Source: a virus (Duplodnaviria > Caudoviricetes). From it: a stretch of 54,151 nt of DNA. Location of the stretch: IMG/VR virus record IMGVR_UViG_3300044960_000107, positions 1 through 54,151 of that record, one strand, 5' to 3'. Both the position numbers and the translations under genes were made by a program. The number at the start of each line of letters is the position of its first letter. The stretch's first letter is position 1. The notes below the pieces were generated by a model. That model had not been told where the DNA came from. It saw only the letters and a program-made list of their open reading frames with translations, and did no database searches. Shown here one piece after another: positions 5,748-51,141 of this stretch.

Positions 5748-6044
5748 TCAGAGGACCTTCGGGCGACGGACGTAGAAGGACCGCTCGGCGGCGGCCTGAG
5801 CAACGCCAGTGCTCAGGCCGCCGTACCACCAGCGGCCAGGCTGGTCGGCGGTGAGCGTGTAGCGAAAGAGCCCGGCCGAGACTCTTACGAGATCGTTGGT
5901 GTCGAGGTCGATGATTGAGCCGTCTGGCTTCCTGATCTTCCCGGCTCTGGTGGTCGGGTCTGTGGCGATGCCGTCGACCGTCCAGAGGAAGTCGAGCTCG
6001 ATGGCGTCGCCAACGTCATAGGTGTTCTCAGCGGGCGTTGTCAT
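5748..6044 (-). CDS. small beta-rich virion accessory protein
   Basis: MTTPAENTYDVGDAIELDF...; in structural operon after fibre-like gene. Confidence 0.6.
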   Translation of the reverse strand: MTTPAENTYDVGDAIELDFLWTVDGIATDPTTRAGKIRKPDGSIIDLDTNDLVRVSAGLFRYTLTADQPGRWWYGGLSTGVAQAAAERSFYVRRPKVL

Positions 6045-6058
6045 CCTGAGCACCTATG
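6017..6058. repeat. 42-bp dyad site, copy 1
   Basis: CATAGGTGTTC-N20-GAGCACCTATG. Confidence 0.85.
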
Positions 6059-10793: not shown

Positions 10794-10835
10794 CATAGAT
10801 GCGCAGGATGCGCGCGCGAGTCCTGAGCGCCTATG
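10794..10835. repeat. 42-bp dyad site, copy 2
   Basis: CATAGATGCGC-N20-GAGCGCCTATG; includes stop codon of 10831..11040. Confidence 0.9.
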
Positions 10836-16181: not shown

Positions 16182-17477
16182 CTATCGGCGGATCAGTTCG
16201 GAGAGCGCCTTGGCGTATCGCTCGCTGTGCCCGTTGCCGTTACCGTTGAGACCGAGCTTCTCGCGGAGGACGTCCTCGAGCGATTCCTCGTCTTGCTCGG
16301 GTTCCTCGGACAGAAGCGGGAGGTCTTCGAGCTCACGAACTTCATTGACGAGGAGGAACTTCTTGTCGATGCCAATGGCGTATGCCTCGTAGCGGGTCTT
16401 CGTGTCGCCACGGAGGAGTGCGGAGACGTTGAACTGTGGATAGATGTCGCGGTCGCCTTCCTTGTTGAACAGCCGCTTCTTGAGCGTCGATTCGATGCGG
16501 ACGAGCCAGGGCCGAAGGCTGTGGACGACGAAGTCGATGGCCTGCTGCTCGACGCTGGCGTAGGAGACGGAGCCGGCCTCGAGGTCGGCGAGCATGTAGG
16601 GCGGGACGCGGAAGATGCGGGCGACTTCGCGGACGCCGAACTTGCGGGTCTCGATGAACTGGGCGTCGCCCGGGGGAATGCCGACGGTCTTGATGTCGGC
16701 GCCGGCCGTGAGGATGCCGAGCAGGTGAGACTTCTTGAGGCCCTTGTGAGCCGAGTCCCAGGCGGCCTTGAACTCCCGCTGCTGCTCGGCGTCCATGACG
16801 CCGGGCCAAGTGACTACGGTGCCGGGTCGAGCGTCGTTCGCGAAGAACCGACCACCGTACTCCTCGGCAGCGATCGCGACACCGAGGGCCTGGCGGGCTA
16901 CCATGATCCGGCTGAGACCGACGTCGCCGCAGGTGCGGAAGCCCTTGAAGTGGATGACCTGATCGGCGGTGAGGCTGTGATCGCGCCCGTTAGGCAGTCT
17001 GGTGATGTAGACGAGCTTGCTGCCGTCGGGGCTGCGGAGCGGCTTGGTACAGGAGGGACTGAGCGGCCAGAGCTCGACGTCGCCGGCCCCGTTGCGGGGG
17101 AAGACGTACCAGTAGGAGTTGCCCCAGAGGGCGACCTGAGAGACGATCATCTCCCACATCTCGAATGAGGTGAGCTCGGGGTTTGGCTCGAGGTTGAGTA
17201 GGTCCCAGCGGGGGTCGTTGCGGAGCTTCTCGCGGCCCTGGTCGGTGCGCTTGTAGATCGGGCAGGGCAGGCCGGCGACGGAGTCGGAGAGGATGCCTAC
17301 CGCGGCAAGCACGGCGGTCATGCGAAGCGACTTCTCAGGGGTGACGCTGATGCCAGCATCGGTCAGGATGGACGTGCCGTCGTCCATCTGCGTCAGCGCG
17401 ATCTTCAGGTCGACGCTGGGGTTCTCGAGCGAATCACGCTTCTCGTCGAGTCGGAGGATGCGGCGCACGAGTCCCAT
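16182..17477 (-). CDS. HK97-family portal protein
   Basis: LWGNSY, VIHFK, DAQFIETRKF, ARIFRVPP, NEVRELEDL. Confidence 0.95.
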   Translation of the reverse strand: MGLVRRILRLDEKRDSLENPSVDLKIALTQMDDGTSILTDAGISVTPEKSLRMTAVLAAVGILSDSVAGLPCPIYKRTDQGREKLRNDPRWDLLNLEPNPELTSFEMWEMIVSQVALWGNSYWYVFPRNGAGDVELWPLSPSCTKPLRSPDGSKLVYITRLPNGRDHSLTADQVIHFKGFRTCGDVGLSRIMVARQALGVAIAAEEYGGRFFANDARPGTVVTWPGVMDAEQQREFKAAWDSAHKGLKKSHLLGILTAGADIKTVGIPPGDAQFIETRKFGVREVARIFRVPPYMLADLEAGSVSYASVEQQAIDFVVHSLRPWLVRIESTLKKRLFNKEGDRDIYPQFNVSALLRGDTKTRYEAYAIGIDKKFLLVNEVRELEDLPLLSEEPEQDEESLEDVLREKLGLNGNGNGHSERYAKALSELIRR

Positions 17478-17501
17478 CGGTGCGCCTATCGGGCGCTGCG
17501 A

Positions 17502-17573
17502 TTCGGGGGCAAGGACTCGAACCCTGATCTCGGCGGCCAGAACGCCGCGTCCTGCCGATTAGACGACCCCCGA
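17502..17573 (-). tRNA. tRNA-Gln (CTG)
   Basis: Full cloverleaf: TCGGGGG/CCCCCGA acceptor with T1:A72, anticodon arm CGGCG-TTCTGGC-CGCCG, T arm CAGGG-TTCGAGT-CCTTG; no encoded CCA. Confidence 0.9.
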
Positions 17574-17574
17574 G

Positions 17575-17664
17575 TGGAGCCGGCGGGAATCGAACCCGCG
17601 TCCCTGTCCGACGCTCGAGTGAAACTGGCCCTCGAACGTCTGACAGGCGCACCTCTGCGGCCCC
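17575..17664 (-). ncRNA. tmRNA-like RNA consisting only of the tRNA-like domain
   Basis: GGGGCCG/CGGCTCC-A acceptor with G3:U70; no D stem; 17-position helix; GAC linker; GCGGG-TTCGATT-CCCGC T arm. Confidence 0.75.
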
Positions 17665-17666
17665 AG

Positions 17667-17736
17667 GTAGCGGGCGAGGACTCGAACCTCCTAGCCGGCG
17701 TATGAGACCGGCCGAACCACCTGGCTCTACCCGCCG
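17667..17736 (-). tRNA. tRNA-Met (CAT), initiator-like but degenerate
   Basis: C1xA72 mismatch, GAGC/GTTC D stem (A11:T24), CTCATAC loop; one T-stem mismatch; lacks the third anticodon-stem G:C. Confidence 0.65.
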
Positions 17737-20149: not shown

Positions 20150-20191
20150 CATAGACGCTCAGCGCGCACATGCGCGGGTTGGGCACCTATG
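20150..20191. repeat. 42-bp dyad site, copy 3
   Basis: CATAGACGCTC-N20-GGGCACCTATG; includes stop codon of ATPase-GNAT gene. Confidence 0.9.
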
Positions 20192-24495: not shown

Positions 24496-24554
24496 CCTCC
24501 TGCGTCGATCTACCGTGACACTCAGATAGTCGCAGACCGTCCCATCGGTGTCAA
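24496..24554 (-). promoter_or_regulatory. island promoter P1 with conserved leader
   Basis: TTGACA-17-GACTAT, GTCACGGTAGATCGA, AGGAGG. Confidence 0.8.
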
Positions 24555-24571: not shown

Positions 24572-24613
24572 CATAGGTGCCCACGTCGCGCGCCCTGGCG
24601 GTGAGCGCCTATG
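24572..24613. repeat. 42-bp dyad site, copy 4
   Basis: CATAGGTGCCC-N20-GAGCGCCTATG. Confidence 0.9.
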
Positions 24614-25928: not shown

Positions 25929-25988
25929 CCTCCTGCGGTCGATCTACCGTGACACTCGAAGTGTCTCAGACCGTCCCATCGGTGTCAA
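25929..25988 (-). promoter_or_regulatory. island promoter P2 with conserved leader
   Basis: TTGACA-17-GACACT, GTCACGGTAGATCGA, AGGAGG. Confidence 0.8.
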
Positions 25989-26000
25989 GTCGGATGACGG

Positions 26001-26042
26001 CATAGGTGAGCAGATTGAGTCACGCCGCGGAGGGCATCTATG
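26001..26042. repeat. 42-bp dyad site, copy 5
   Basis: CATAGGTGAGC-N20-GGGCATCTATG. Confidence 0.85.
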
Positions 26043-26100: not shown

Positions 26101-27219
26101 CTATCGGCGCCGCTGCCGGACGGCCTCGTGGGAGAGGCCCGCAGCTTCGGCCACGGCGCGAAGGGTGGCGCCCGCCTCGAGGGCGTCGCGGATGGCTTCG
26201 TCGAGCTCGACACGCGCTCGCTCTAGCGCATCCTCGAGGGACTCGGTAGCTGCCCGCCGGCGGCGCACGAGCTCGAGCTCGGCAGAGACGTCGGGGCGTG
26301 GCACTTCATCAGCGTAGGTGGCGCTCATGACGTCGCTCCTTCGTGGGGATTGGATGAAGCCCGACGTCCAGAGGCTCACCGTCGGGCGACCGTACTCGCC
26401 TCCGGTCACAGCTTCGATCGCGACGTAGGCGGCCTGCGTCACCGCGCCTTCCGGCGGGATCGGCGCGAGCGCTCCGTCAGCGATCAGGCGCTCGACGATC
26501 GGCCTCCACTGGATGCGGATAGTGCGCGAGCGCATCGGCCGGCCAGGGCGCTTCACCTGCGGCGCTACGTCGAGCCCGAGCACCGCGCCATCGAGGATGA
26601 CGTACTCCCAGATACCGGCGAAGTCGCCATCGCGCCCGATCACCCAAGGGTGGGGGTGATGGTCGTAGCGGTGCTTGGCAGTCATGCCTACGTTGATCTC
26701 GATGAGCCGGGACTTGCCACCCCACCAGAACTGAGCGGCGGCGATCGCCCGGGCAGAACCCGTCGCATTCCACGCGAGCGTATGGACGCTGGCCAACTCG
26801 AGGGGGCCAGGCAAGGGGCCGCCCTCGTGGTCGCGGTGATCCATGAAACCCAGGAAGGTCCAGTGCGGGAGCCCGCTGCGCGCCACGCAGGGGCTCGGAT
26901 GCTTCATGTGGTTGATTCGCAGGTTGACAGCCCAGCCATTGCCAGACCGCCTCCAGGTGACCGAGGTCGGCTGCCCCGGCCCAAGCGGGAACGACCTCGC
27001 GTGTGGGCCGGGGCACGACTGCTGGCCCGCCGGCTCATGCTGGACGACGAGCTGCCAGTGCTTTCCGTCGGAGCCGCACTCGGCCGTCTCGTACCAGATC
27101 GTCGCCTCGCCCGGAAACGACGTCGCGGCGCAGCGCCGCTTGAGACCGTCATCCCAGCCGGCCTGAGCGACCGACGCGAGCAGAGCAGCGATGATGAGCG
27201 CGACGAGCCAGCGGATCAT
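26101..27219 (-). CDS. signal-peptide protein with in-frame C-terminal HTH-like domain (internal start at 26328)
   Basis: MIRWLVALIIAALLASVAQAG; last 75 aa include GATLRAVAEAAGLSHEAVRQ and follow their own AAGGAG SD and ATG. Confidence 0.65.
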   Translation of the reverse strand: MIRWLVALIIAALLASVAQAGWDDGLKRRCAATSFPGEATIWYETAECGSDGKHWQLVVQHEPAGQQSCPGPHARSFPLGPGQPTSVTWRRSGNGWAVNLRINHMKHPSPCVARSGLPHWTFLGFMDHRDHEGGPLPGPLELASVHTLAWNATGSARAIAAAQFWWGGKSRLIEINVGMTAKHRYDHHPHPWVIGRDGDFAGIWEYVILDGAVLGLDVAPQVKRPGRPMRSRTIRIQWRPIVERLIADGALAPIPPEGAVTQAAYVAIEAVTGGEYGRPTVSLWTSGFIQSPRRSDVMSATYADEVPRPDVSAELELVRRRRAATESLEDALERARVELDEAIRDALEAGATLRAVAEAAGLSHEAVRQRRR

Positions 27220-27452
27220 CAGGCGATCTCGCTCCCTGCGAGCAACTCGGGCTCCCACTCGCGCAGCGCCTCCGTCAACTGAGCCCAGAAGCCGCTCAGA
27301 TCATCAGGCGGCTCCGTAAGCAGGCGGTCGTAAAGCCGATCCCACTCATGGGCGCTCAGCGTCCGCCCAAGGACCGCGTTGGCATGCTCACGAATCTCGT
27401 CCCACGTAACGACGAGATAGACGTCCTCCTCGCCCCAGACCTCATAGCTCAT
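27219..27452 (-). CDS. hypothetical protein
   Basis: 77 aa acidic; GGAGG SD. Confidence 0.7.
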   Translation of the reverse strand: MSYEVWGEEDVYLVVTWDEIREHANAVLGRTLSAHEWDRLYDRLLTEPPDDLSGFWAQLTEALREWEPELLAGSEIA

Positions 27453-28739: not shown

Positions 28740-29005
28740 GCCACCGCCACGCTGTTGTCGAGGTGGGCGCCCTGCGCGAAGTGGCGGGCGATGTTGCCGG
28801 TGTGCTCGGAGAGCTCGAACGTCTCGATGGCATAGGCCGAGCCGACCGGGTAGATGGCGACCACGACATCGGAGTCGCCGTTCGCAACTTCATCCTGCGC
28901 GGCGGTGCGGGCTGCGAGACGCGCCTCCTCGATGGTGAGCGCGTCGCAGACGTGATAGTCCTCTGCCGCGTAGGCGATGACTTCGTAGCGTGCGTCCAGG
29001 AACAT
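28736..29005 (-). CDS. hypothetical protein
   Basis: 89 aa; GGAGG SD. Confidence 0.7.
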   Translation of the reverse strand: MFLDARYEVIAYAAEDYHVCDALTIEEARLAARTAAQDEVANGDSDVVVAIYPVGSAYAIETFELSEHTGNIARHFAQGAHLDNSVAVA

Positions 29006-29017
29006 CGTTGACCCTCC

Positions 29018-29101
29018 CTAGTGCCAGAAGGCGAAGTAGACGATCAGGCCGATGTAGGCGAACCAGAGCGGCCAGAAGTAGCGATCAGGCAGCCGATCCA
29101 T
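29018..29101 (-). CDS. very small hydrophobic peptide
   Basis: MDRLPDRYFWPLWFAYIGLIVYFAFWH; GGGGAG SD. Confidence 0.5.
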   Translation of the reverse strand: MDRLPDRYFWPLWFAYIGLIVYFAFWH

Positions 29102-29336
29102 CGTTCTCCCCCTCTCGAACCGCGCGAATAAGCGCCGAGCGGGCCTGCCGCTCAGCCTCAGCGCAGCGCTGGGTCCAGCGGTGGGCGCGCTGGTAGGCAC
29201 GCACGTTCTCCTCGATGCCGACGCGAGCGGCAGCCCCGGCCTCATGCTTGCGTGCAATGCGCAGGTCCTCTGCGCGCCGAGCAACCTCGGCGCGCAGATC
29301 GACCAGGTTCGGGCGAGTGCTCGGCATCGCGATCAC
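29085..29336 (-). CDS. hypothetical protein
   Basis: 83 aa; GTGA overlap. Confidence 0.6.
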   Translation of the reverse strand: MIAMPSTRPNLVDLRAEVARRAEDLRIARKHEAGAAARVGIEENVRAYQRAHRWTQRCAEAERQARSALIRAVREGENDGSAA

Positions 29337-29578
29337 CCGTCCATCCGCTGACCGCGGCCCGCGAGCTCGCCGACGGTCCCATCGGGCTTGACGCGGACGC
29401 GAGTCTGGAATTCGCGCTCGCCGTCATAGCCGTAAGCGATGACCGCGAAGTCGCCGGAGCCATCGACCATCTCGGTGACCTCCGCGGCGTAAGCGGAGAC
29501 CTCGAAGCCCAGTGCGGTGATCCCGCGAAGCGCGATCCCGAGCGCCTGGGAGAGGCCGTTGATCTGCTCGTGCGTCAT
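29333..29578 (-). CDS. hypothetical protein
   Basis: First gene after P3; AGGAGG SD. Confidence 0.75.
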   Translation of the reverse strand: MTHEQINGLSQALGIALRGITALGFEVSAYAAEVTEMVDGSGDFAVIAYGYDGEREFQTRVRVKPDGTVGELAGRGQRMDG

Positions 29579-29584
29579 GTCGTA

Positions 29585-29643
29585 CCTCCTTGCTCGATAT
29601 ACCGTGACTCACTCATGGTCTCACACGGCCCGCGCGGTGTCAA
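29585..29643 (-). promoter_or_regulatory. island promoter P3 with conserved leader
   Basis: TTGACA-17-GACCAT, GTCACGGTATATCGA, AGGAGG. Confidence 0.8.
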
Positions 29644-29673
29644 GACGATTGACAATCGCGCGGGCCATGCGAG

Positions 29674-29904
29674 TCACGGGAGGGGGCAGGGAAGCTGCCG
29701 CGCGGTCTCGTAGCAGACCTTCGCGGCAGCGAGATTTTCTGCTCGGCCGATGCGGCGCGCGAGCCCATCCGTGAAGGGCCAGGGCTGCCCGGTGCGCGGG
29801 TCGTTGCCGACCGGGCGATGCCCGCGGCGCGCGCACCAGATGTAGAACTCAGCCAGGGCGTACAGCTCGGCGCGCTTGCGGTTCGCGTGACCCATCGCGA
29901 TCAC
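29674..29904 (-). CDS. hypothetical protein
   Basis: 76 aa; GTGA overlap. Confidence 0.55.
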   Translation of the reverse strand: MIAMGHANRKRAELYALAEFYIWCARRGHRPVGNDPRTGQPWPFTDGLARRIGRAENLAAAKVCYETARQLPCPLP

Positions 29905-30410
29905 CGGAATGCCTTGATGCAGACGGGGCCGATACCGCGCTCGACGGAGGTCGCGTCCTTGAGCCGGCGTCCGCAGTTCAGGCAGCGCCCGTAGCGAATC
30001 GTCAGCTCCTTGGCGCGCTCGAGGTCCATCCGGTGCTCGGGGCGAATGCGGCGAATCGCGCCCGGTGCGTACTCGAAGTCGAAGTGCTCGTGCGAGTCGG
30101 CCTCGGTCAGGCGGGTGCCGTTGATCGTGACCAGGCGCTTCGCGTAGACCCGCGTGCCCTGTCGATTCGGCTTCACCACGAAAACCTCGCCGTCGACCTC
30201 ATAGACCCCTGGCTCGACGGGAGTGGGCGCATCCTCGCGCGCGCGCCGCGGAATCGCCTTCAAGCTCGTGATGACCTGACTGGCGAGGGCCTTGGTGAAC
30301 CCCTCGCCCTCCATCATCGCGCACGTCGCCTGCGCGAGCTCCTCATGGACCTCGCGTCCCTCGAGGAGCGTCTGGATGAAGGCGATCTGAGCTTCGGTTG
30401 CAGGTGCCAT
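29901..30410 (-). CDS. DUF6011-like zinc-finger protein
   Basis: ATEAQIAFI N-terminus; CLNCGRRLKDATSVERGIGPVC. Confidence 0.8.
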   Translation of the reverse strand: MAPATEAQIAFIQTLLEGREVHEELAQATCAMMEGEGFTKALASQVITSLKAIPRRAREDAPTPVEPGVYEVDGEVFVVKPNRQGTRVYAKRLVTINGTRLTEADSHEHFDFEYAPGAIRRIRPEHRMDLERAKELTIRYGRCLNCGRRLKDATSVERGIGPVCIKAFR

Positions 30411-30415
30411 GCCGT

Positions 30416-30475
30416 CCTCCTTGCTCGATCTACCGTGACGCGATCTATGGTCTCATGCCGTCGCATCGGTGTCAA
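30416..30475 (-). promoter_or_regulatory. island promoter P4 with conserved leader
   Basis: TTGACA-17-GACCAT, GTCACGGTAGATCGA, AGGAGG. Confidence 0.8.
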
Positions 30476-30480
30476 GAGCC

Positions 30481-30542
30481 TTGACACCAGTGGGGCGGTA
30501 TGAGACTATGAGGTTGTCACGGTAGATCGACTCGAAAGGAGG
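30481..30542 (+). promoter_or_regulatory. island promoter P5, back-to-back with P4
   Basis: TTGACA-17-GACTAT, GTCACGGTAGATCGA, AGGAGG. Confidence 0.8.
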
Positions 30543-30547
30543 CGACG

Positions 30548-30787
30548 ATGGAACTGCACACACTCATCGAGCTCGCACGCGAGTACGCCGATCTCGGCGA
30601 CTCGATGATGAGCCAGCTCGATGCCCTCGTCGACACGAACGACGTCCAGGCGCTCGTCGACAAGGGCGAGCTGAACCCGAACGCGCTGCCCTGGATTCAG
30701 CGCTTCCTCGAGAAGGCGGCAGCCGCCGAGGTCTATGGGGCCGACGGGCTGCTCGACCTGATCGACGACTACGAGCGGGGTCTCTGA
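30548..30787 (+). CDS. acidic hypothetical protein
   Basis: 79 aa; first gene after P5. Confidence 0.75.
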   Translation: MELHTLIELAREYADLGDSMMSQLDALVDTNDVQALVDKGELNPNALPWIQRFLEKAAAAEVYGADGLLDLIDDYERGL

Positions 30788-31014
30788 TGGCCCCGCTCCG
30801 CGTTCCCGGCTGGCTCCGGCCCTACATCGACGAGATGAGGGCGAACGGCTACGACATCGCGAAGGGCAAGGGCGGTCATATCGCAGTGGTCAATGCTCAA
30901 GGCAAGCGCGTTGCCACTCTGCCCGCCACCCCGGGCAAAGGGCGATCGGTCGAAAACAACATCGCGCTCCTGCGCAGGCTCGGCGTGCTGGGCCGCAAGG
31001 GCGAAGGGAGATAA
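30787..31014 (+). CDS. HicA-like protein
   Basis: 75 aa basic; KGGHIAVV...VATLPATP. Confidence 0.6.
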   Translation: MAPLRVPGWLRPYIDEMRANGYDIAKGKGGHIAVVNAQGKRVATLPATPGKGRSVENNIALLRRLGVLGRKGEGR

Positions 31015-31019
31015 ACTCG

Positions 31020-31280
31020 ATGTCGATGCCCCTCTACAACGTCACGCTGGAAACCGAGCCCGCCGCAGGCGCGGAGGAGGCGAGCGACGAGCTGCTCGAG
31101 AAGCTCGAGGGGCTCGAGGCCGCCGGCATCCTCGAGGGGCTCAGCGGCGTCGGCGTGACTGACGACAGGGCCCTCGTCACGATCTTCGACGTGCAGGCCC
31201 CGAACATCTGGCGAGCCGCTCGACGCGCGACGCACTACATCGGCAGGAACGCCCGCCTGCTGCACATCGTCGCCGCCTGA
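31020..31280 (+). CDS. hypothetical protein, possible HicB-like partner
   Basis: 86 aa acidic, directly after HicA-like gene. Confidence 0.5.
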   Translation: MSMPLYNVTLETEPAAGAEEASDELLEKLEGLEAAGILEGLSGVGVTDDRALVTIFDVQAPNIWRAARRATHYIGRNARLLHIVAA

Positions 31281-31318
31281 CTGGGCCTCGGCCTCGAGGC
31301 ACGCTACTATCGCGCGCC

Positions 31319-31639
31319 ATGAGAACACGTGCCATCTTCACCATCGGTGTTGTCACCATCGCGCTGGTCGCCGGCGCATGCGGCGGCGGTGGCAACAGCG
31401 GCAGCGAACAGGTCGACCAGGCACTTGCCGACCTCGAGCTCAACCCGCTGCCCGTCATCAACGAGACCACGGTCGAAGGGATGACCGAGGCAACTCGGCA
31501 GTACATCGAGGATGCGAACGCCCAGCGGGATGTGGTCGGCGACGAGCGCGTCGACGAAGCGCTGAGCGAACTCGCCAGCGATCTCGTCGGCATCTGCGAT
31601 CCCTGCGTGGAGCTACTCGATCGCGCGATCCGCGAGTAG
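31319..31639 (+). CDS. lipoprotein
   Basis: Signal peptide with lipobox VAGA-C; TACTAT 9 nt before ATG suggests own leaderless promoter. Confidence 0.75.
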   Translation: MRTRAIFTIGVVTIALVAGACGGGGNSGSEQVDQALADLELNPLPVINETTVEGMTEATRQYIEDANAQRDVVGDERVDEALSELASDLVGICDPCVELLDRAIRE

Positions 31640-31659
31640 GGAAGAAGCCCTCCACCGAA

Positions 31660-31747
31660 CGGAAAGGGCGGCCGGAGCCGCCCTTTCGCATTCCTGAAGC
31701 TCGGGCGAGAGAGGCCGACTTGTCACGGTAGACCTAGCCCGACTTCC
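31660..31747 (-). ncRNA. putative small RNA antisense to the P1-P5 leaders
   Basis: Own promoter; hairpin GAAG-UCGGGC...GCCCGA-g-CUUC with inner AGGUC/GGCCU and loop UACCGUGACAAGUC; ends in terminator. Confidence 0.65.
31662..31687. terminator. bidirectional intrinsic terminator
   Basis: GAAAGGGCGGC-CGGA-GCCGCCCTTTC. Confidence 0.8.
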
Positions 31748-31752
31748 CTCTC

Positions 31753-31782
31753 AGCGTAACACATGAAAGCGCTTTCCGGCAA
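31753..31782 (-). promoter_or_regulatory. putative sRNA promoter with palindrome in the spacer
   Basis: TTGCCG-18-TACGCT with extended TG; GAAAGCGCTTTC at 31765-31776. Confidence 0.55.
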
Positions 31783-31801
31783 GACAACGCACTTCGGCGC
31801 G

Positions 31802-31843
31802 CATAGGCGCTCAGGGCGCGCATCCACGGATGGAGCATCTATG
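31802..31843. repeat. 42-bp dyad site, copy 6
   Basis: CATAGGCGCTC-N20-GAGCATCTATG; includes stop codon of 31839..32036. Confidence 0.9.
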
Positions 31844-32036
31844 CGCGCTCGGCCCGCCGGAGCTCCCGCCACTCCTCATAGTCGTCGAAGCGCCACCGGC
31901 TAAGGCGTGGTCGGCGCCACTCTAACACGACTCCGGGGAGCTCGATCGCCAGCGCGTACTCCTTGAACCCGACAAGGATCGCGCCGGATGAACCTGCGTC
32001 GTGCGATGCCCAGAAGTGCCAGAAGCGAACGGTCAT
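31839..32036 (-). CDS. hypothetical protein
   Basis: MTVRFWHFWASHDAG...; start uncertain. Confidence 0.55.
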   Translation of the reverse strand: MTVRFWHFWASHDAGSSGAILVGFKEYALAIELPGVVLEWRRPRLSRWRFDDYEEWRELRRAERA

Positions 32037-32055
32037 GCGTCGGCAAAGGGACGCA

Positions 32056-32277
32056 TCAGCGGACCTCCTCGAAGACGAGCTCGCGCAGCTCGGGCCGACC
32101 GCTCGAGTGGGGCTCAAGATGAATGCGCCACGTCTTTGGTCCGATGCCTGTCTCGAGCTCCTTGGCGAGCTCGGCAGCGAATGGGACCAAGATGACTCGG
32201 TGAACAGTGGCGTACTCGCTGAGCGTGACGTCGCGCGATCTGCCCGAGACGTGGTAAACCGGATGGCGGTAGCTCAC
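32056..32277 (-). CDS. hypothetical protein
   Basis: GTG SYRHPVYHVSG...; GTGA overlap. Confidence 0.55.
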   Translation of the reverse strand: MSYRHPVYHVSGRSRDVTLSEYATVHRVILVPFAAELAKELETGIGPKTWRIHLEPHSSGRPELRELVFEEVR

Positions 32278-32363
32278 GACTCGCCTCGCATCACCAGCAC
32301 TGGGTTGAGCGCTATCCTGCGGCACTCCTCGATGTAAGCGATGGCGCGCTCGCGATCAGTCAC
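32274..32363 (-). CDS. very small hypothetical protein
   Basis: GTG TDRERAIAYIEECRR; GGAGG SD; overlaps both neighbours by GTGA. Confidence 0.45.
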   Translation of the reverse strand: MTDRERAIAYIEECRRIALNPVLVMRGES

Positions 32364-33031
32364 GCCGCCGCCTCCGGTGGCTTCGGCCAAGGCCACTCGT
32401 CGTCGCAGCCCCAAAGAACGGCGCGCACGGTCGACGTGTCCCAGGCGAACGGCTCCTTGAGCATCTGGCGAACCATGTGGTGTAAGACAGAGCCACGCTC
32501 GCTGAGCGCGACTGTCCGAGACGCCGGCGGGATGCACCGAAGAATCCGGGCGACTTTCGCGACCGTGCGCCGGGAGAGGGGCGGCGGTGTGAATGGGGTC
32601 CTCCCAGATTCCCCGCGCCCCCCTGCTGCCGGGGACAGCCACCGCTTGCGGCGCGAGCGCTCCCGTGCCTGCCGGAGACGCTGCTCGATCTGCCGGTGGT
32701 GAGGCTGGCAGACAGTGACCAGGTGCATCGGGTCGAACGGGTCCTCTCCCATCGAGAGGAGCTCGCGCACCGTCCACGGATGGTGATGCGCCTCCAGGCT
32801 GGAGTCTCCGCCGCGGACCTCACAGCGCAGCTCGTGCTCGACAACTCGACAACGCCACCCGTCTCGCACGAAGGCCGCTCGCCTCGCCTCCGGCCAGCGA
32901 GCATCGGAGTAGACCCACCGTCCGTCCAATCGCTCAGCCTGCTCCCTGCTGAACGCTCGCTCGTGTTCAGAGCACCTGCGCTTGCCCTTGTCGATCAGGG
33001 CTCCACAGTCGATGCAGAAGGTCTTGGGCAT
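32360..33031 (-). CDS. HNH endonuclease (HK97 gp74-like packaging nuclease) with long C-terminal extension
   Basis: CIDCG...RCSEH; WPEARRAAFVRDGWRC; EAHHH; LVTVCQPHH. Confidence 0.85.
   Translation of the reverse strand: MPKTFCIDCGALIDKGKRRCSEHERAFSREQAERLDGRWVYSDARWPEARRAAFVRDGWRCRVVEHELRCEVRGGDSSLEAHHHPWTVRELLSMGEDPFDPMHLVTVCQPHHRQIEQRLRQARERSRRKRWLSPAAGGRGESGRTPFTPPPLSRRTVAKVARILRCIPPASRTVALSERGSVLHHMVRQMLKEPFAWDTSTVRAVLWGCDDEWPWPKPPEAAA
32555..32623 (-). other. putative cos/packaging region
   Basis: GGGGGGCGCGGGGAATCT...ACCGCCGCCCCTCTC...TCGCGAAA right after the HNH domain, resembling as I recall the cos regions of P27-TerS phages. Confidence 0.5.
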
Positions 33032-33222
33032 CAGCGCTTCTGCCCGAGCAGGTCGATGACCGCGTCCGCTCGAAAGCGAACGAGGAGCGAGTGCCTGACC
33101 ACGAGGTAGGCGATCAGGGCGCCCCAGGGCGGGGACCTGAAGGCGAAGTAGGTGATCGCTCCGACGCAGGCGCCGAGCAGTGCCGAGACGATAGCGGCGT
33201 TCCAGTGCCAACGAGTAGGCAT
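33031..33222 (-). CDS. small membrane protein
   Basis: MPTRWHWNAAIVSALLGACVG...; two hydrophobic stretches. Confidence 0.6.
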   Translation of the reverse strand: MPTRWHWNAAIVSALLGACVGAITYFAFRSPPWGALIAYLVVRHSLLVRFRADAVIDLLGQKR

Positions 33223-33404
33223 CAGCAGTTGAGGACGATCGTGGTCTGGTTCTGAGCGATGACCTTGCAGCCATCGGCGAAGGGCCCTACGTCTACGGCC
33301 GCAAGGAAGGCCATGAAGACAAGAGCGAGAGCAACGAGGACGATCGCCGCGATGCCGATGCGTGCGACAGTGCTGCTGACGTTGCTGGGCCTGGACAGGC
33401 TCAC
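33222..33404 (-). CDS. small membrane protein
   Basis: One TM helix; coupled overlaps. Confidence 0.6.
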   Translation of the reverse strand: MSLSRPSNVSSTVARIGIAAIVLVALALVFMAFLAAVDVGPFADGCKVIAQNQTTIVLNC

Positions 33405-34048
33405 TCCTCGTCCTCCTCACCGATGAGTTCGAGCTGCTGCTCGGCCACGACCTCGGCTGCTTCGTTGAGCACCTGGACGGCCCATTGCTCGACCTCGACA
33501 CCTACCTCCTCGGCCGCCTGCTGCCAGAGGAGGTAGTGCTCCTCGGCTGCACGCAGCTCGACCTGACGCAGGCGCACGATGTCGTTGGAGCTCGCGCCTG
33601 GTCCCTGGGGACCAGGGGCAGGGGGTAGGGCAGTCTTCTCCTCTGCGACAGCCCTCTCGAGCTCGATCTTGTTGAGGCCCTCCTCCTCGGCCATGTCGAG
33701 CAGTCGTTCCTGGTCCTCATAGTCGAGGAAGGCGACAGCCTTGTGGTGGCTGAAGCTGAGGGTGGCCCTGCGCCGGTCCTTCGGGATTCGCTTGCAGACC
33801 TTGTGGTAGTTGCGAAGCGTCTCCTTGTCGATGCCGAGGCTGGCGACGACCTCGTCGATGCCCTCGATGTGAGAGAAGCGGTGGTCCTTGATGACAGCCC
33901 AATCGCCGATCGCCCACTGGACCGCGTTGCCACTGCGGGCGATCCGCTTCCCGATGTCTACCCACTGTTCGTAGGTGATGCTGTCTTCGTCGACGTTGAG
34001 CCCGACGGGGGTGAGGTAGTTCTGGGGGATCGTCGCTGGGACTGTCAC
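33401..34048 (-). CDS. LmbU-like transcriptional regulator
   Basis: QWAIGDW, TLRNY, RRRATLSFSHHKAVA, QERLLDMA. Confidence 0.75.
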   Translation of the reverse strand: MTVPATIPQNYLTPVGLNVDEDSITYEQWVDIGKRIARSGNAVQWAIGDWAVIKDHRFSHIEGIDEVVASLGIDKETLRNYHKVCKRIPKDRRRATLSFSHHKAVAFLDYEDQERLLDMAEEEGLNKIELERAVAEEKTALPPAPGPQGPGASSNDIVRLRQVELRAAEEHYLLWQQAAEEVGVEVEQWAVQVLNEAAEVVAEQQLELIGEEDEE

Positions 34049-34064: not shown

Positions 34065-34904
34065 TTACGCTGCGAGCGCTGATCGGAGGTCGCGCAGGGC
34101 CCGGCTGACCCTGCGTTTCGACCAGTGAAGGTCGCTGGCTACCTCCTCGATCGTCTTGCCCTCGAACGCGATGGGCATGGCGATGCGTCGCAGGTAGAAG
34201 CGCTGGTCGGTGTCGAGTCGGGTGACGTTCACGAGCGAGCCGATCTGCTCGGCCATGTCGAACTCGTCTGGCGTGCGCTCGAGCTCCTCGGCGGGGACAA
34301 CCTGTGGGCGTCGCCGCCCGATCGCCGCGGACTTGCAGATGCGGCAGTGGGGAAGGTCCGCCTCGCTCTCGTTCGGGAAGACGGCCCCGCAGTCGAGGCA
34401 GGTGAGAATGCCATGTCGGCTGTCTCCGAACTGCTCTCTGTACCAGTCAGCCAGGCGCAGGCGCATCATCCGGTAGGCGTAGGTCGAGAACGAGAGCCCC
34501 TTGCTCGGGTCGTAGCCAGGGACGCGCTCGAGGTCGTTGCCGCACTCATCGCAGGTCGACGCCTGGTGTGTGTGCGGGTAGTTCTTGCCGCAGCCGGTCT
34601 TACGAACGAGCTCGTGGTCGCATGTCTCGCAGGTGATGAGTCCGGTCTTCGGCGCGTAGACGGCACCGCACTCCGGGCAACGCAGCCGAGAAATGCAGCG
34701 GACGCTGCCATAGGCGAGGTGGTAGGCGACACCGACGAGATAGGCATGGGCATCCTCTCTCTGGTGCTCGTTCAGGTGAGCCGACCACTGCTTGAGACGG
34801 GTCTCAAGCGCCTGGCGGGCAAGTGCGTTGACGTCTTCGACGTCATGGAGCTCGAGCTTCACTGCCTCCGAGGGTAGCACACCAAGTGACATTCGCCTAG
34901 TCAC
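34065..34904 (-). CDS. sigma70-family sigma factor with inserted zinc ribbons
   Basis: Region 2 YDPSKGLSFSTYAYRMMR; region 4 KTIEEVASDLHWSKRRVSRAL; five CxxC motifs. Confidence 0.8.
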   Translation of the reverse strand: MTRRMSLGVLPSEAVKLELHDVEDVNALARQALETRLKQWSAHLNEHQREDAHAYLVGVAYHLAYGSVRCISRLRCPECGAVYAPKTGLITCETCDHELVRKTGCGKNYPHTHQASTCDECGNDLERVPGYDPSKGLSFSTYAYRMMRLRLADWYREQFGDSRHGILTCLDCGAVFPNESEADLPHCRICKSAAIGRRRPQVVPAEELERTPDEFDMAEQIGSLVNVTRLDTDQRFYLRRIAMPIAFEGKTIEEVASDLHWSKRRVSRALRDLRSALAA

Positions 34905-35128: not shown

Positions 35129-35154
35129 GTCAGACCCTCTCCCCCCGTGTGTGA

Positions 35155-35391
35155 CCCTAGATTGTGTATTTCGTTACGTATTGGGACACGTAGAGAGGGG
35201 GACACACAGACACCCCGTCTCCTTTGTCTCCGAAAGTCATCTTTATGCCCCAATCCCGCATGGTTGAGCCGAAACTTTCGGAGACAACCAGCGTTTCTGA
35301 AAGCGTCTCCGCTGTCGCTGAAAGTGTCAAGTCGGTTGACACTTTCGGAAGCATTCGGAGACGCGAATGTCTCCGAAAGTGTCTCCGAAAG
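35155..35391. repeat. iteron-like repeats, putative replication origin
   Basis: TGTCTCCGAAAG at 35225, 35368, 35380, inverted at 35275, plus degenerate copies; AT-rich patch at ~35158-35183; downstream of primase/helicase-like genes. Confidence 0.7.
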
Positions 35392-35392
35392 G

Positions 35393-37829: not shown

Positions 37830-38264
37830 CTACGTGTCGATGGGGTGGACGACGATCTCGGCAGCCGGCGGGTCGCCGTAGACCTTGATCGCGTGCTGTC
37901 TGATGACCTGCGAGTCGTCCCGCCAGACGACGCCCTTCATGGCGTCCTCCGTCGAGCGAACGAGCTTCGTCAGGTCAGGGGCGACCGTCGGGTAGGGGCG
38001 CTTCTTCTCGCTGACAGACTGGGGCCGGGGTAGCCAGAACTTGAGGACGAGGTGGAGTGGTCCCTCGAGCGGGTCGCGACCGATCATGGCGGTGATGGCC
38101 GCGGTCCTGACGAGCTTCTTCCAGTGAGACGTCCTGGGCTTCGTCTTGCGTCGCTCGCCCATGTCGTAGGTGAAGATCGTCCCGTCCTTGCGTCGCCCGT
38201 GAGCCTTCGATCCGGCAGGCGCCGGCTCGCCGACGACGGTGAAGCGGATCGCATAGGGGTTCAT
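37830..38264 (-). CDS. rusA: RusA-family Holliday junction resolvase
   Basis: PAPAGSK, PDLTKLVRSTEDAM...WRDDSQV. Confidence 0.9.
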   Translation of the reverse strand: MNPYAIRFTVVGEPAPAGSKAHGRRKDGTIFTYDMGERRKTKPRTSHWKKLVRTAAITAMIGRDPLEGPLHLVLKFWLPRPQSVSEKKRPYPTVAPDLTKLVRSTEDAMKGVVWRDDSQVIRQHAIKVYGDPPAAEIVVHPIDT

Positions 38265-51099: not shown

Positions 51100-51141
51100 C
51101 ATAGGCGCTCAAAGCGGTGCTTTGCGGTCTGAGCGCCTATG
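51100..51141. repeat. 42-bp dyad site, copy 8 (perfect arms)
   Basis: CATAGGCGCTC-N20-GAGCGCCTATG; includes stop codon of 51137..51985. Confidence 0.9.

What the first reader, a model, noticed from the sequence alone, without database searches (positions are those of the whole stretch)
31660..31782. Small RNA whose hairpin loop is antisense to the shared 5' end of five phage mRNAs
Seen: the minus strand has TTGCCG-18-TACGCT (extended TG), then ~88 ORF-free nt ending in a strong terminator. The predicted RNA folds GAAG-UCGGGC/GCCCGA-g-CUUC plus AGGUC/GGCCU, leaving UACCGUGACAAGUC as the apical loop. Its segment GGUCUACCGUGAC (31734-31722) forms 13 bp (one G:U) with GUCACGGUAGAUC, the predicted first 13 nt of transcripts from P1, P2, P4 and P5 (P3 has one mismatch), a few nt upstream of each AGGAGG. 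I found this motif only at those five promoters and here, and here it is reversed relative to transcription. Inference: one trans-acting RNA switches off a whole regulon, by pairing with the nascent mRNA or by guiding a protein to the promoter +1 region. Known analogues are P1 C4 and P4 CI antisense RNAs; I do not recognise this one.
Basis: partly seen in the sequence, partly recalled or inferred. Interest (0 to 1): 0.88.

Follow-up and report, generated by a model that had tools for sequence, protein, structure and literature searches.

The report
Candidate phage anti-leader small RNA
An uncultured hot-spring phage carries a short gene-free unit, with a promoter-like site and a terminator hairpin, whose hairpin top is complementary to the shared first 13 bases of five phage messages; it looks like one small RNA controlling a set of operons, but nothing shows yet that it is made.

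Summary
GTCACGGTAGATC occurs at most one mismatch away exactly six times in this complete 54-kb phage record (0.08 expected). Five copies sit at the predicted +1 of five near-identical promoter cassettes. The sixth (31722-31734, 12/13) lies inverted in a 199-nt non-coding gap between convergent operons.

On the minus strand the gap holds, in order:
- a 42-bp palindrome
- TTGCCG-18-TGTTACGCT, the only full promoter of this type in the genome
- a strong terminator hairpin without a U tract

Predicted duplexes with the five leaders are -22.7 to -29.1 kcal/mol and end just upstream of each Shine-Dalgarno site.

No RNA data exist. The phage has no close relative in any collection searched, so covariation cannot be tested. 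The first hairpin is only modestly better than shuffles, and equally good on both strands. A DNA-binding protein, or a cis-acting promoter-proximal element, could also explain the five leader copies.

My odds: anti-leader sRNA 0.45, protein operator 0.25, cis element plus coincidence 0.2.

It matches no Rfam family and is not a C4 or CI relative. A parallel turned up: the single inverted SAS of Cluster K mycobacteriophages sits in a conserved hairpin loop.

The parts
31802..31843 (.). 42-bp palindromic element CATAGATGC...GAGCGCCTATG. It contains the stop codon of the upstream minus-strand gene and is one of 7 such elements in the genome. It probably marks the 3' end or terminator of the preceding operon.
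   Evidence: 7 copies, all exactly 42 bp, hairpins -8.7 to -30.2 kcal/mol
31777..31782 (-). -35-like hexamer TTGCCG of the putative sRNA promoter, 18 nt downstream of the palindrome
31753..31761 (-). extended -10 TGT-TACGCT (TGnTAnnnT). One of only 5 such sites on both strands of the genome, and the only one with TTGNNN at promoter spacing.
31696..31746 (-). hairpin 1 of the predicted RNA (stem GAAGUCGGGC / GCCCGA-g-CUUC; upper part AGG/CCU and CCG/CGG)
   Evidence: MFE -21.2 kcal/mol, z -2.15, 6 of 200 shuffles as good
31722..31734 (-). anti-leader GGUCUACCGUGAC in the upper part of hairpin 1. It is complementary (12 Watson-Crick pairs plus 1 G:U) to the first 13 nt of the P1, P2, P4 and P5 leaders.
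31657..31693 (-). terminator hairpin GAAUG-c-GAAAGGGCGGC UCCG GCCGCCCUUUC-CGUUC, no U tract. It sits between convergent units and is more stable on the minus strand.
   Evidence: -29.9 kcal/mol on -, -23.5 on +
24507..24554 (-). P1 cassette: TTGACACC...TGCGAC promoter (24529-24554) and leader motif (24507-24519). Downstream gene is a Zn-ribbon protein.
25941..25988 (-). P2 cassette: promoter plus leader motif (25941-25953). Downstream gene is an AAA_25 helicase-like protein.
29596..29643 (-). P3 cassette: promoter plus leader motif with one mismatch (GTCACGGTATATC). Downstream is an 81-aa ORF.
30427..30475 (-). P4 cassette: promoter plus leader motif. Downstream gene is a DUF6011 protein. Back to back with P5.
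30481..30528 (+). P5 cassette: promoter plus leader motif. It drives the only plus-strand operon (30548-31639), which converges on the terminator hairpin.

Best explanation
The gap 31655-31782 encodes a roughly 90-nt non-coding RNA on the minus strand.

Inferred: host RNA polymerase starts near 31747 from TTGCCG-18-TGTTACGCT, just after the palindrome that closes the long early/replication operon, and stops at the hairpin 31657-31693.

Computed: the RNA folds into a 5' hairpin whose upper part carries GGUCUACCGUGAC, followed by the terminator hairpin. That segment can pair with nucleotides +1 to +13 (up to +17 at P3 and P4) of the five messages started at P1-P5.

Inferred: the duplex ends 2-8 nt before each Shine-Dalgarno site. 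Binding would therefore hinder 30S loading or create a double-stranded or 5'-end substrate for RNases, regulating the five units together. These units are replication and unknown genes plus the one divergent operon. Repression is the more likely direction, but the sign is not known.

No integrase was found among the proteins scanned, so this would be temporal control in a lytic cycle rather than immunity.
For: - Six copies at <=1 mismatch against 0.08 expected. The sixth lies in one of the few non-coding gaps (12.8% of the genome by my map) and is antisense to the local minus-strand unit.
- Only 5 TGnTAnnnT sites exist on both strands. The one here is the only one with TTGNNN at promoter spacing.
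- The same layout of 42-bp palindrome followed 11-18 nt later by a -35 occurs at P1, P2 and here.
- The 93-nt RNA has MFE -51.1 kcal/mol, z -4.50, and 0 of 200 shuffles are as good. The terminator is 6.4 kcal/mol more stable on the minus strand than on the plus strand.
- There is no coding signal in the gap.
- Duplexes with the five leaders are -22.7 to -29.1 kcal/mol. Opening costs are 7.9 kcal/mol for the sRNA and 0.7-5.8 for the leaders.
- The single base that differs from the leader consensus gives G:U rather than a mismatch.
- Within the cassettes, the +1..+15 block is more conserved than the 3' half of the -10 and the discriminator. It is therefore selected in its own right.
- Analogy: in Cluster K mycobacteriophage Adephagia the single inverted SAS lies in the 10-nt apical loop of a hairpin in a 432-nt gap. 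The surrounding 141-nt query matches 143 records, and 129 of them cover at least 80% of it. In 8 aligned phages, 2 of 18 pairs show compensatory changes.
Against:
- No relatives were found, so covariation could not be tested.
- Hairpin 1 alone has z -2.15 (6 of 200 shuffles as good) and folds equally well on the plus strand (-21.9 kcal/mol, z -2.14). With a 5' end 13 nt further upstream the region is no better than shuffles (z 0.03, 96 of 200).
- Six of the 13 anti-leader positions (14, 15, 20-22 and, at 0.17, position 16) have an unpaired probability of 0.3 or less.
- The terminator has no U tract.
- In a genome-wide duplex scan with a 23-nt core, two unrelated sites (37861-37890 +, -33.5 kcal/mol; 17287-17316 -, -30.7) score better than the leaders.
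- A distant relative (G001, helicase 35% identical) has 14 copies of its own leader motif, all in sense orientation and none antisense.
- In Cluster K, DarthP and Ekdilam have a deviating loop although DarthP's SAS is unchanged (Ekdilam's SAS was not examined). Pixie and Hurricane lack the hairpin.
Confidence: 0.45

Rival explanations
1. The 13-15-bp motif is an asymmetric DNA operator for a phage (or host) protein that sits at +1..+15 and blocks or modulates the five promoters. The sixth copy is a further binding site. It could be a roadblock just beyond the terminator of the P5 operon, where it has the same orientation relative to plus-strand transcription as at the promoters. It could also be a site at +14..+26 of the small minus-strand unit. 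On this reading the complementarity to the leaders is a by-product.
For: Asymmetric 13-mer sites bound by a monomeric repressor at promoters and in short intergenic gaps, with orientation tied to transcription, are established for Cluster A mycobacteriophages (PMC9283540, passages read). All six copies here lie in non-coding DNA. The sixth copy has the same orientation as P5 on the plus strand. The phage encodes candidate DNA-binding proteins: a sigma-like protein at 34065-34862 and a 385-aa protein with a C-terminal HTH at 26101-27258. Hairpin 1 gives no strand preference.
Against: No stoperator-type or other repressor family was found in the 40 proteins scanned with Pfam or the 30 scans with PHROGs. 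There are only six sites rather than dozens. This model does not explain why the sixth site sits between a rare extended -10 promoter and a terminator with no ORF, nor why it is embedded in an inverted repeat.
Confidence: 0.25
2. The +1..+15 block is a cis-acting part of the promoter cassette. It could be a promoter-proximal pause or antiterminator-loading element (it contains the -10-like TAGATC), or an mRNA 5'-end stability or translation element. The cassettes spread by duplication. The sixth copy is a chance 12/13 match or a decayed remnant. The two hairpins in the gap are simply the terminators of two convergent operons.
For: The whole cassette from -40 to +30 is conserved, not only the 13-mer. 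Seven palindromic hairpins, which may act as terminators, lie along the operons, so an antitermination device at the promoters would make sense (inference). A convergent gap is expected to hold hairpins. Hairpin 1 is only marginally better than shuffles. G001 has 14 copies of a comparable leader motif without any antisense copy. Similar leader motifs (SAS) in Cluster K are still of unknown function (PMC11373665, PMC12699233, passages read).
Against: A <=1-mismatch copy is expected only 0.08 times per genome, and falling in non-coding DNA makes it roughly tenfold rarer. Its flanks show no cassette remnant: no TTGACACC and only a shifted GAGA. Neutral decay would not spare just the 13-mer. The coincidence with the only full TTGNNN-18-TGnTAnnnT promoter in the genome is unexplained.
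Confidence: 0.2
3. The relevant transcript is the plus strand. Read-through from the P5 operon carries a sense copy of the leader (GUCACGGUAGACC) in a hairpin. This copy acts as a decoy for whatever factor binds the leaders.
For: Hairpin 1 folds as well on the plus strand (-21.9 kcal/mol). The copy is downstream of the P5 operon in sense orientation.
Against: It lies beyond a strong hairpin terminator. No leader-binding factor is known. The minus-strand promoter is left unexplained.
Confidence: 0.05

Closest known systems
P1/P7 C4 antisense RNA (immI region)
   Same: A phage-encoded small structured RNA whose exposed segment pairs with phage mRNA to shut down a group of genes (PMC8198154, passages read; further mechanistic detail recalled).
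   Different: C4 is made from the same operon that it controls and acts on sites upstream of icd/ant. Here the unit is predicted to have its own promoter and to target the extreme 5' ends of five separate transcription units. There is no sequence or structure similarity (no Rfam hit). The phage shows no lysogeny genes among those scanned.
P4 CI RNA (seqA/seqC pairing, premature termination)
   Same: A small phage RNA pairs with short repeated complementary sequences in phage transcripts and prevents expression of replication genes (PMC4825925, passage read).
   Different: CI is processed from the leader of the operon it controls and causes transcription termination at two sites in that operon. 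Here there are five dispersed targets at +1..+13, adjacent to Shine-Dalgarno sites, and no homology.
SAS/ESAS of Cluster K mycobacteriophages, with the single inverted SAS of subcluster K1
   Same: [quoted passage not shown] The function is unknown (PMC3203893, PMC11373665, passages read). I find that the inverted copy in Adephagia lies in the apical loop of a conserved hairpin in a non-coding gap.
   Different: The motif differs (GGGATAGGAGCCC), contains the Shine-Dalgarno core and lies 3-9 nt from the start codon. Here the motif is the 5' end of the message and the Shine-Dalgarno site is separate. The phages are unrelated (terminase at most 31% identical to any GenBank phage). In Cluster K no terminator follows the hairpin.
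Operators and stoperators of Cluster A mycobacteriophages (L5 gp71 type)
   Same: Asymmetric 13-bp motif at promoters and in intergenic gaps, with orientation linked to transcription (PMC9283540, passages read).
   Different: Those are protein sites, more than 20 per genome, in a temperate phage with a known repressor. Here there are 6 copies, no repressor was found, and one copy is framed as a small transcription unit.
Seed-type trans-acting sRNA regulons of bacteria (for example RyhB, GcvB; recalled, no call)
   Same: One small RNA with a promoter, a terminator and an exposed seed that pairs near the ribosome-binding sites of several mRNAs.
   Different: Those targets share only short degenerate seeds. 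Here all targets carry the same 13-15-nt block at the very 5' end, inside duplicated promoter cassettes.

Membership tests
C4 antisense RNA family (P1/P7; Rfam) | Sequence and structure match to the curated covariance model | tested here: not met
   Rfam 15 at gathering thresholds on the whole window found only a tRNA. A permissive scan of 31600-31900 gave 6 weak matches far below gathering scores, none to C4.
C4 antisense RNA family (P1/P7; Rfam) | Encoded in, and processed from, the operon whose downstream genes it represses | tested here: not met
   The candidate lies in its own gap after a palindrome and has its own promoter-like site. The targets are five other units. The definition of this feature is partly recalled.
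P4 CI RNA | Homology to CI, and pairing with seqA/seqC in the same transcript to cause termination | tested here: not met
   No Rfam match. The targets are at +1..+13 of separate transcripts. Whether termination occurs cannot be tested.
Trans-acting base-pairing sRNA (functional class) | Own promoter | tested here: inconclusive
   TTGCCG-18-TGTTACGCT is the only full site of this type in the genome. It fails the E. coli-type consensus scan, and no TSS data exist.
Trans-acting base-pairing sRNA (functional class) | Terminator and absence of an ORF | tested here: met
   Hairpin of -29.9 kcal/mol, z -4.54. GC3 is flat and no plausible ORF is present. There is no U tract.
Trans-acting base-pairing sRNA (functional class) | Accessible segment complementary to several targets near their ribosome-binding sites | tested here: met
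   13 bp with 4 leaders and 12 of 13 with P3. Duplexes are -22.7 to -29.1 kcal/mol. Accessibility is only partial, with an opening cost of 7.9 kcal/mol.
Trans-acting base-pairing sRNA (functional class) | The RNA is expressed and acts in trans | not testable with these tools
   No RNA run was listed for this DNA.
Stoperator/operator system (Cluster A type) | Asymmetric 13-bp sites at promoters and intergenic gaps, oriented with transcription | tested here: inconclusive
   The motif is asymmetric and all 6 sites are non-coding. The sixth site runs with plus-strand transcription but against minus-strand transcription.
Stoperator/operator system (Cluster A type) | Cognate repressor (HTH plus stoperator domain) | tested here: inconclusive
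   No such family was found in the 40 proteins scanned with Pfam or the 30 scans with PHROGs. About 100 ORFs exist, so most small ORFs were not scanned.
SAS/ESAS (Cluster K) | Motif GGGATAGGAGCCC containing the SD core, 3-9 nt from the start codon | tested here: not met
   The motif here is different. Its end lies 15-21 nt before the start codon (starts at +29 to +35), and AGGAGG is separate. The definition comes from PMC3203893 and PMC11373665.

The most novel reading that the evidence does not exclude
Anti-leader riboregulation is a recurrent, unrecognised control principle in actinobacteriophages. A family of operons carries one identical leader block, and a single inverted copy of that block, displayed in a hairpin loop of a small non-coding transcript, acts as the master regulator of the whole set. 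On this reading the present RNA and the conserved hairpin that carries the lone inverted SAS of Cluster K mycobacteriophages are two independent inventions of the same device. The function of SAS, unknown since 2011, would then be to serve as the target of that RNA.
Probability: 0.2. Interest if true: 0.85.

Novelty: new variant of a known kind. Interest (0 to 1): 0.62.

Why it matters
If real, this is a phage regulon wired through RNA. One roughly 90-nt transcript would address five operons through an identical 5'-terminal tag. That is simpler than the protein repressor networks known for actinophages and differs in layout from the C4 and CI immunity RNAs.

It would also give a concrete, testable idea for what conserved leader motifs in phage genomes are for. 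The parallel found in Cluster K mycobacteriophages can be tested at the bench in Mycobacterium smegmatis with existing phages and existing RNA-seq data. The phage in this window is uncultured.

Tried and rejected
Relatives and covariation. Each search below found nothing usable.
- Megablast of 29000-33500 against GenBank phages: no match.
- Exact scans of IMG/VR for the 15-nt leader (31 single hits), for the promoter-plus-leader pattern (23 hits) and for a 16-nt sRNA segment (11 hits). All hits were in unrelated, mostly coding contexts.
- Single-protein searches with the DUF6011 protein, the 215-aa protein and the terminase. The first two found no relative; the terminase found 12 loci at 30% identity or less.
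- Helicase profile (A1). The profile gave 11 viral loci (best 42%), 52 metagenome loci (best 45%) and 27 genome loci (best 38%).
- I screened 14 of the 63 loci for repeated 11-mers. Only unrelated leader motifs appeared.
- blastn-short of the sRNA locus and the P5 cassette against the 193 loci held returned only loci that had been fetched by exact patterns.

Expression. No RNA holder was listed among the 7 runs. Contigs of 4 DNA runs showed no variant in 31574-31940.

Other checks.
- The lone forward copy of the G001 leader motif looked like a third anti-leader case. It is an ordinary sense copy in front of GGAGG and a GTG start on the other strand, so I rejected it.
- Pairing of the leader with the 16S rRNA 3' end was considered from recall and dropped, because the orientation does not fit; nothing was computed.
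- A small ORF in the RNA (31613-31726, 37 aa) would run through the terminator, so I rejected it.
- The depletion of TGnTAnnnT against block shuffles (5 observed, 27.5 expected) is explained by the scarcity of TA (77 TAnnnT sites). I do not use it as evidence.
- One literature search was set too loosely and gave nothing.
- Supplements of the Cluster K papers (site tables) are closed and may list the inverted SAS sites.

Full report
**What the window is.** The window is a complete virus record of 54151 bp (CheckV 100%). Its GC content is about 67%. The same DNA is held by DNA runs labelled hot-springs or microbial-mat metagenome.

It has no near relative among GenBank phages. Its terminase is at most 31% identical to any of them. 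The DUF6011 protein behind P4 matches only actinobacteriophages (331 records). The best cellular relatives of its helicase lie in Actinomycetota MAGs. An actinobacterial host is therefore likely.

By my ORF map nearly all genes are on the minus strand. The only plus-strand unit is a four-gene operon at 30548-31639.

Functions found along the minus strand:
- Exonucleases, a Gp3-like protein, SSB, RusA, Prim-Pol, a primase and a sigma-like protein lie between 49 kb and 34 kb.
- A helicase-like ATPase, a Zn-ribbon protein and DUF6011 lie between 30 kb and 24 kb.
- Terminase and tail genes lie below 20 kb.
- A CHAP endolysin lies at 50-51 kb.

No integrase or repressor family appeared in the 40 proteins scanned with Pfam.

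**The observation.** GTCACGGTAGATC occurs six times at one mismatch or fewer, against 0.08 expected. Five copies belong to cassettes of the form CTTGACACC-N15-TG(a/c)GAC-nnn-N6-7-GTCACGGTAGATCGA-N3-8-AGGAGG.

Within the cassettes the +1..+15 block is invariant except for one base in P3. The 3' half of the -10 and the discriminator vary. The block is therefore selected for itself.

The sixth copy (31722-31734, plus strand, GTCACGGTAGACC) lies in the 199-nt gap 31640-31838. The gap shows no coding signal. It separates the plus-strand operon from the last minus-strand gene of the long upstream block.

**Anatomy of the gap, read on the minus strand.**
1. A 42-bp palindrome sits at 31843-31802 and contains the stop codon of the upstream gene. 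It is one of seven elements, all exactly 42 bp, of the form CATAGGYGCYCA-N18-TGAGCRCCTATG. Two others lie 16 and 11 nt upstream of the -35 of P1 and P2. This one lies 18 nt upstream of CTTGCCG.
2. TTGCCG-18-TGTTACGCT follows. Only five TGnTAnnnT sites exist in the genome, and this is the only one with TTGNNN at promoter spacing. The E. coli-type scan lists neither it nor P1-P5, so that scan is uninformative here.
3. From about 31747 there are 93 nt without a plausible ORF. Their MFE is -51.1 kcal/mol (z -4.50, 0 of 200 shuffles as good).
4. The terminator hairpin is 6.4 kcal/mol more stable on the minus strand than on the plus strand. It lacks a U tract.

**Pairing.** The segment GGUCUACCGUGAC forms 13 pairs (one G:U) with the first 13 nt of the P1, P2, P4 and P5 leaders. 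With P3 it forms 12 of 13. At P3 and P4 three more pairs follow a one-base mismatch.

Duplex energies are -22.7 to -29.1 kcal/mol. Opening the segment in the sRNA costs 7.9 kcal/mol. Opening the leaders costs 0.7-5.8 kcal/mol. Start codons lie at +29 to +35 and Shine-Dalgarno sites begin at about +17 to +22, so the duplex abuts the ribosome-binding region.

**Weaknesses.**
- Hairpin 1 alone is only modestly better than shuffles (z -2.15) and equally good on the plus strand. With a 5' end 13 nt further upstream a different fold wins and the z-score is 0.03.
- Part of the anti-leader is paired.
- A crude genome-wide duplex scan with a 23-nt GC-rich core places P2, P1 and P5 among the top seven sites. 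Two unrelated sites score better.
- No RNA run is listed, and the DNA contigs show no variants at the locus.
- No collection holds a relative close enough to test covariation.
- Rfam has no matching family.

**Weighing the readings.** Pure coincidence requires two unlikely events together. The first is a rare 12/13 match falling in non-coding DNA. The second is that match lying between the only full extended -10 promoter of its type and a terminator, in antisense orientation. I rate that low.

A protein operator explains the non-coding position and has a strong precedent in Cluster A stoperators (PMC9283540). It does not explain the promoter/terminator frame, and no repressor was found.

A cis-acting promoter-proximal element explains P1-P5 well but leaves the sixth copy to chance. 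It could be a pause or antiterminator site. The block contains TAGATC, and the operons are dotted with palindromic hairpins.

I therefore commit to the anti-leader sRNA at 0.45. The operator stands at 0.25, the cis element plus coincidence at 0.2, and a plus-strand decoy at 0.05.

**Comparison with known systems.** P1 C4 and P4 CI are the closest working analogues (PMC8198154 and PMC4825925, passages read). This is not a member of either family. There is no model match, it is predicted to have its own promoter rather than be processed from the controlled operon, and its five dispersed targets sit at the extreme 5' ends of their messages.

The cassette architecture resembles ESAS plus SAS of Cluster K mycobacteriophages. 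Their function is still described as unknown in 2024 and 2025 (PMC11373665, PMC12699233).

In Adephagia this copy lies in the 432-nt gap between genes 92 and 93 (L162 38683-38695). That is record 58682-58694. The plus-strand RNA there folds into two strong hairpins (z -7.15). The second presents CCUCCUAUCC as a 10-nt apical loop. Nine of its ten bases are complementary to GGAUAGGAG of the SAS, including the Shine-Dalgarno core.

The 141-nt query around it matches 143 Cluster K records, 129 of them over at least 80% of its length. In eight aligned phages 18 pairs are predicted. Two show compensatory changes, and the ten pairs of the lower stem are never broken.

Against generality:
- DarthP and Ekdilam carry CCUCCUUCCCC in the loop, although DarthP's SAS is unchanged.
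- Pixie and Hurricane lack the hairpin.
- The unrelated phage G001 has 14 sense copies of its own leader motif and no antisense copy.

In the searches I made I found no paper that proposes an anti-SAS RNA (passages). One search was a loose search (2 of 3 terms, 35,047 papers, 10 listed) and carries little weight. The subscription literature and the supplements were not searchable.

**Verdict.** If real, this is a new variant of phage antisense-RNA control with a regulon-wide, 5'-terminal target. It is worth a bench test, most easily through the Cluster K parallel.

Noticed in passing
window 6017-6058, 10794-10835, 20150-20191, 24572-24613, 26001-26042, 31802-31843, 51100-51141: Seven copies of an exactly 42-bp palindromic element, CATAGGYGCYCA-N18-TGAGCRCCTATG. 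Each begins at or over a stop codon (..CATAG) in an intergenic gap. Three are followed within 11-18 nt by a -35 element (P1, P2 and the candidate sRNA promoter). They could be terminators, processing or stability hairpins, or sites for a dimeric protein. Hairpin energies are -8.7 to -30.2 kcal/mol.
   Followed up: partly
L162 38662-38714 (Mycobacterium phage Adephagia JF704105, record 58661-58713): The single inverted SAS of this Cluster K1 phage sits in the 10-nt apical loop (CCUCCUAUCC) of a strong hairpin in the 432-nt gap between genes 92 and 93. The 141-nt query around it matches 143 Cluster K records. In 8 aligned phages, 2 of 18 pairs show compensatory changes. It may be an anti-SAS/anti-SD RNA element.
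   Followed up: partly
window 35129-35392: A non-coding gap with many direct and inverted copies of TTTCGGAGAC(A) around a TTGACA. It looks like an iteron or operator array, possibly an origin or regulatory region, next to the primase-like gene.
   Followed up: no
window 34065-34862 (-): A 265-aa protein with weak sigma-70 region 2 and region 4 matches and inserted zinc ribbons. It may be a phage sigma factor, and it could be what reads the highly uniform CTTGACACC...TGAGAC promoters.
   Followed up: no
window 30440-30515: P4 and P5 are back to back. Their -35 elements form the palindrome GGTGTCAAG-AGC-CTTGACACC.
   Followed up: no
G001 (IMG/VR record holding L043), whole 49426-bp record: This distant relative (helicase 35% identical) has 14 copies of ACCTGAGCCAGTAA directly upstream of Shine-Dalgarno sites: 13 on one strand and 1 on the other, before a divergent gene. 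It is a SAS-like leader motif of its own.
   Followed up: yes
L052 4440-4500 and 13420-13530; motif copies at 4539, 5627, 6316, 8031, 9944, 12866: Another distant relative has a repeated start-associated block, AGAAGGAGCAGCA, and two short tandem arrays.
   Followed up: no
window 32592-32644: The long contigs listed for two DNA runs cover up to about 32577-32591 and resume at 32645. One 57354-nt contig carries the two sides at its opposite ends. This suggests a circular or permuted assembly with an assembly break in a 73-75% GC stretch.
   Followed up: no
window 17343-17735: tRNA-Gln and tRNA-Met genes lie inside the structural region. The ARAGORN 'tmRNA*' call overlaps the tRNA-Gln and is not supported by Rfam, so it is probably false.
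   Followed up: no
window 30787-31014 (+): The second gene of the P5 operon (75 aa, phrog_2089, no Pfam hit) has a basic sequence that reminded me of HicA-like RNA-binding toxins. This is a recollection only and was not tested.
   Followed up: no
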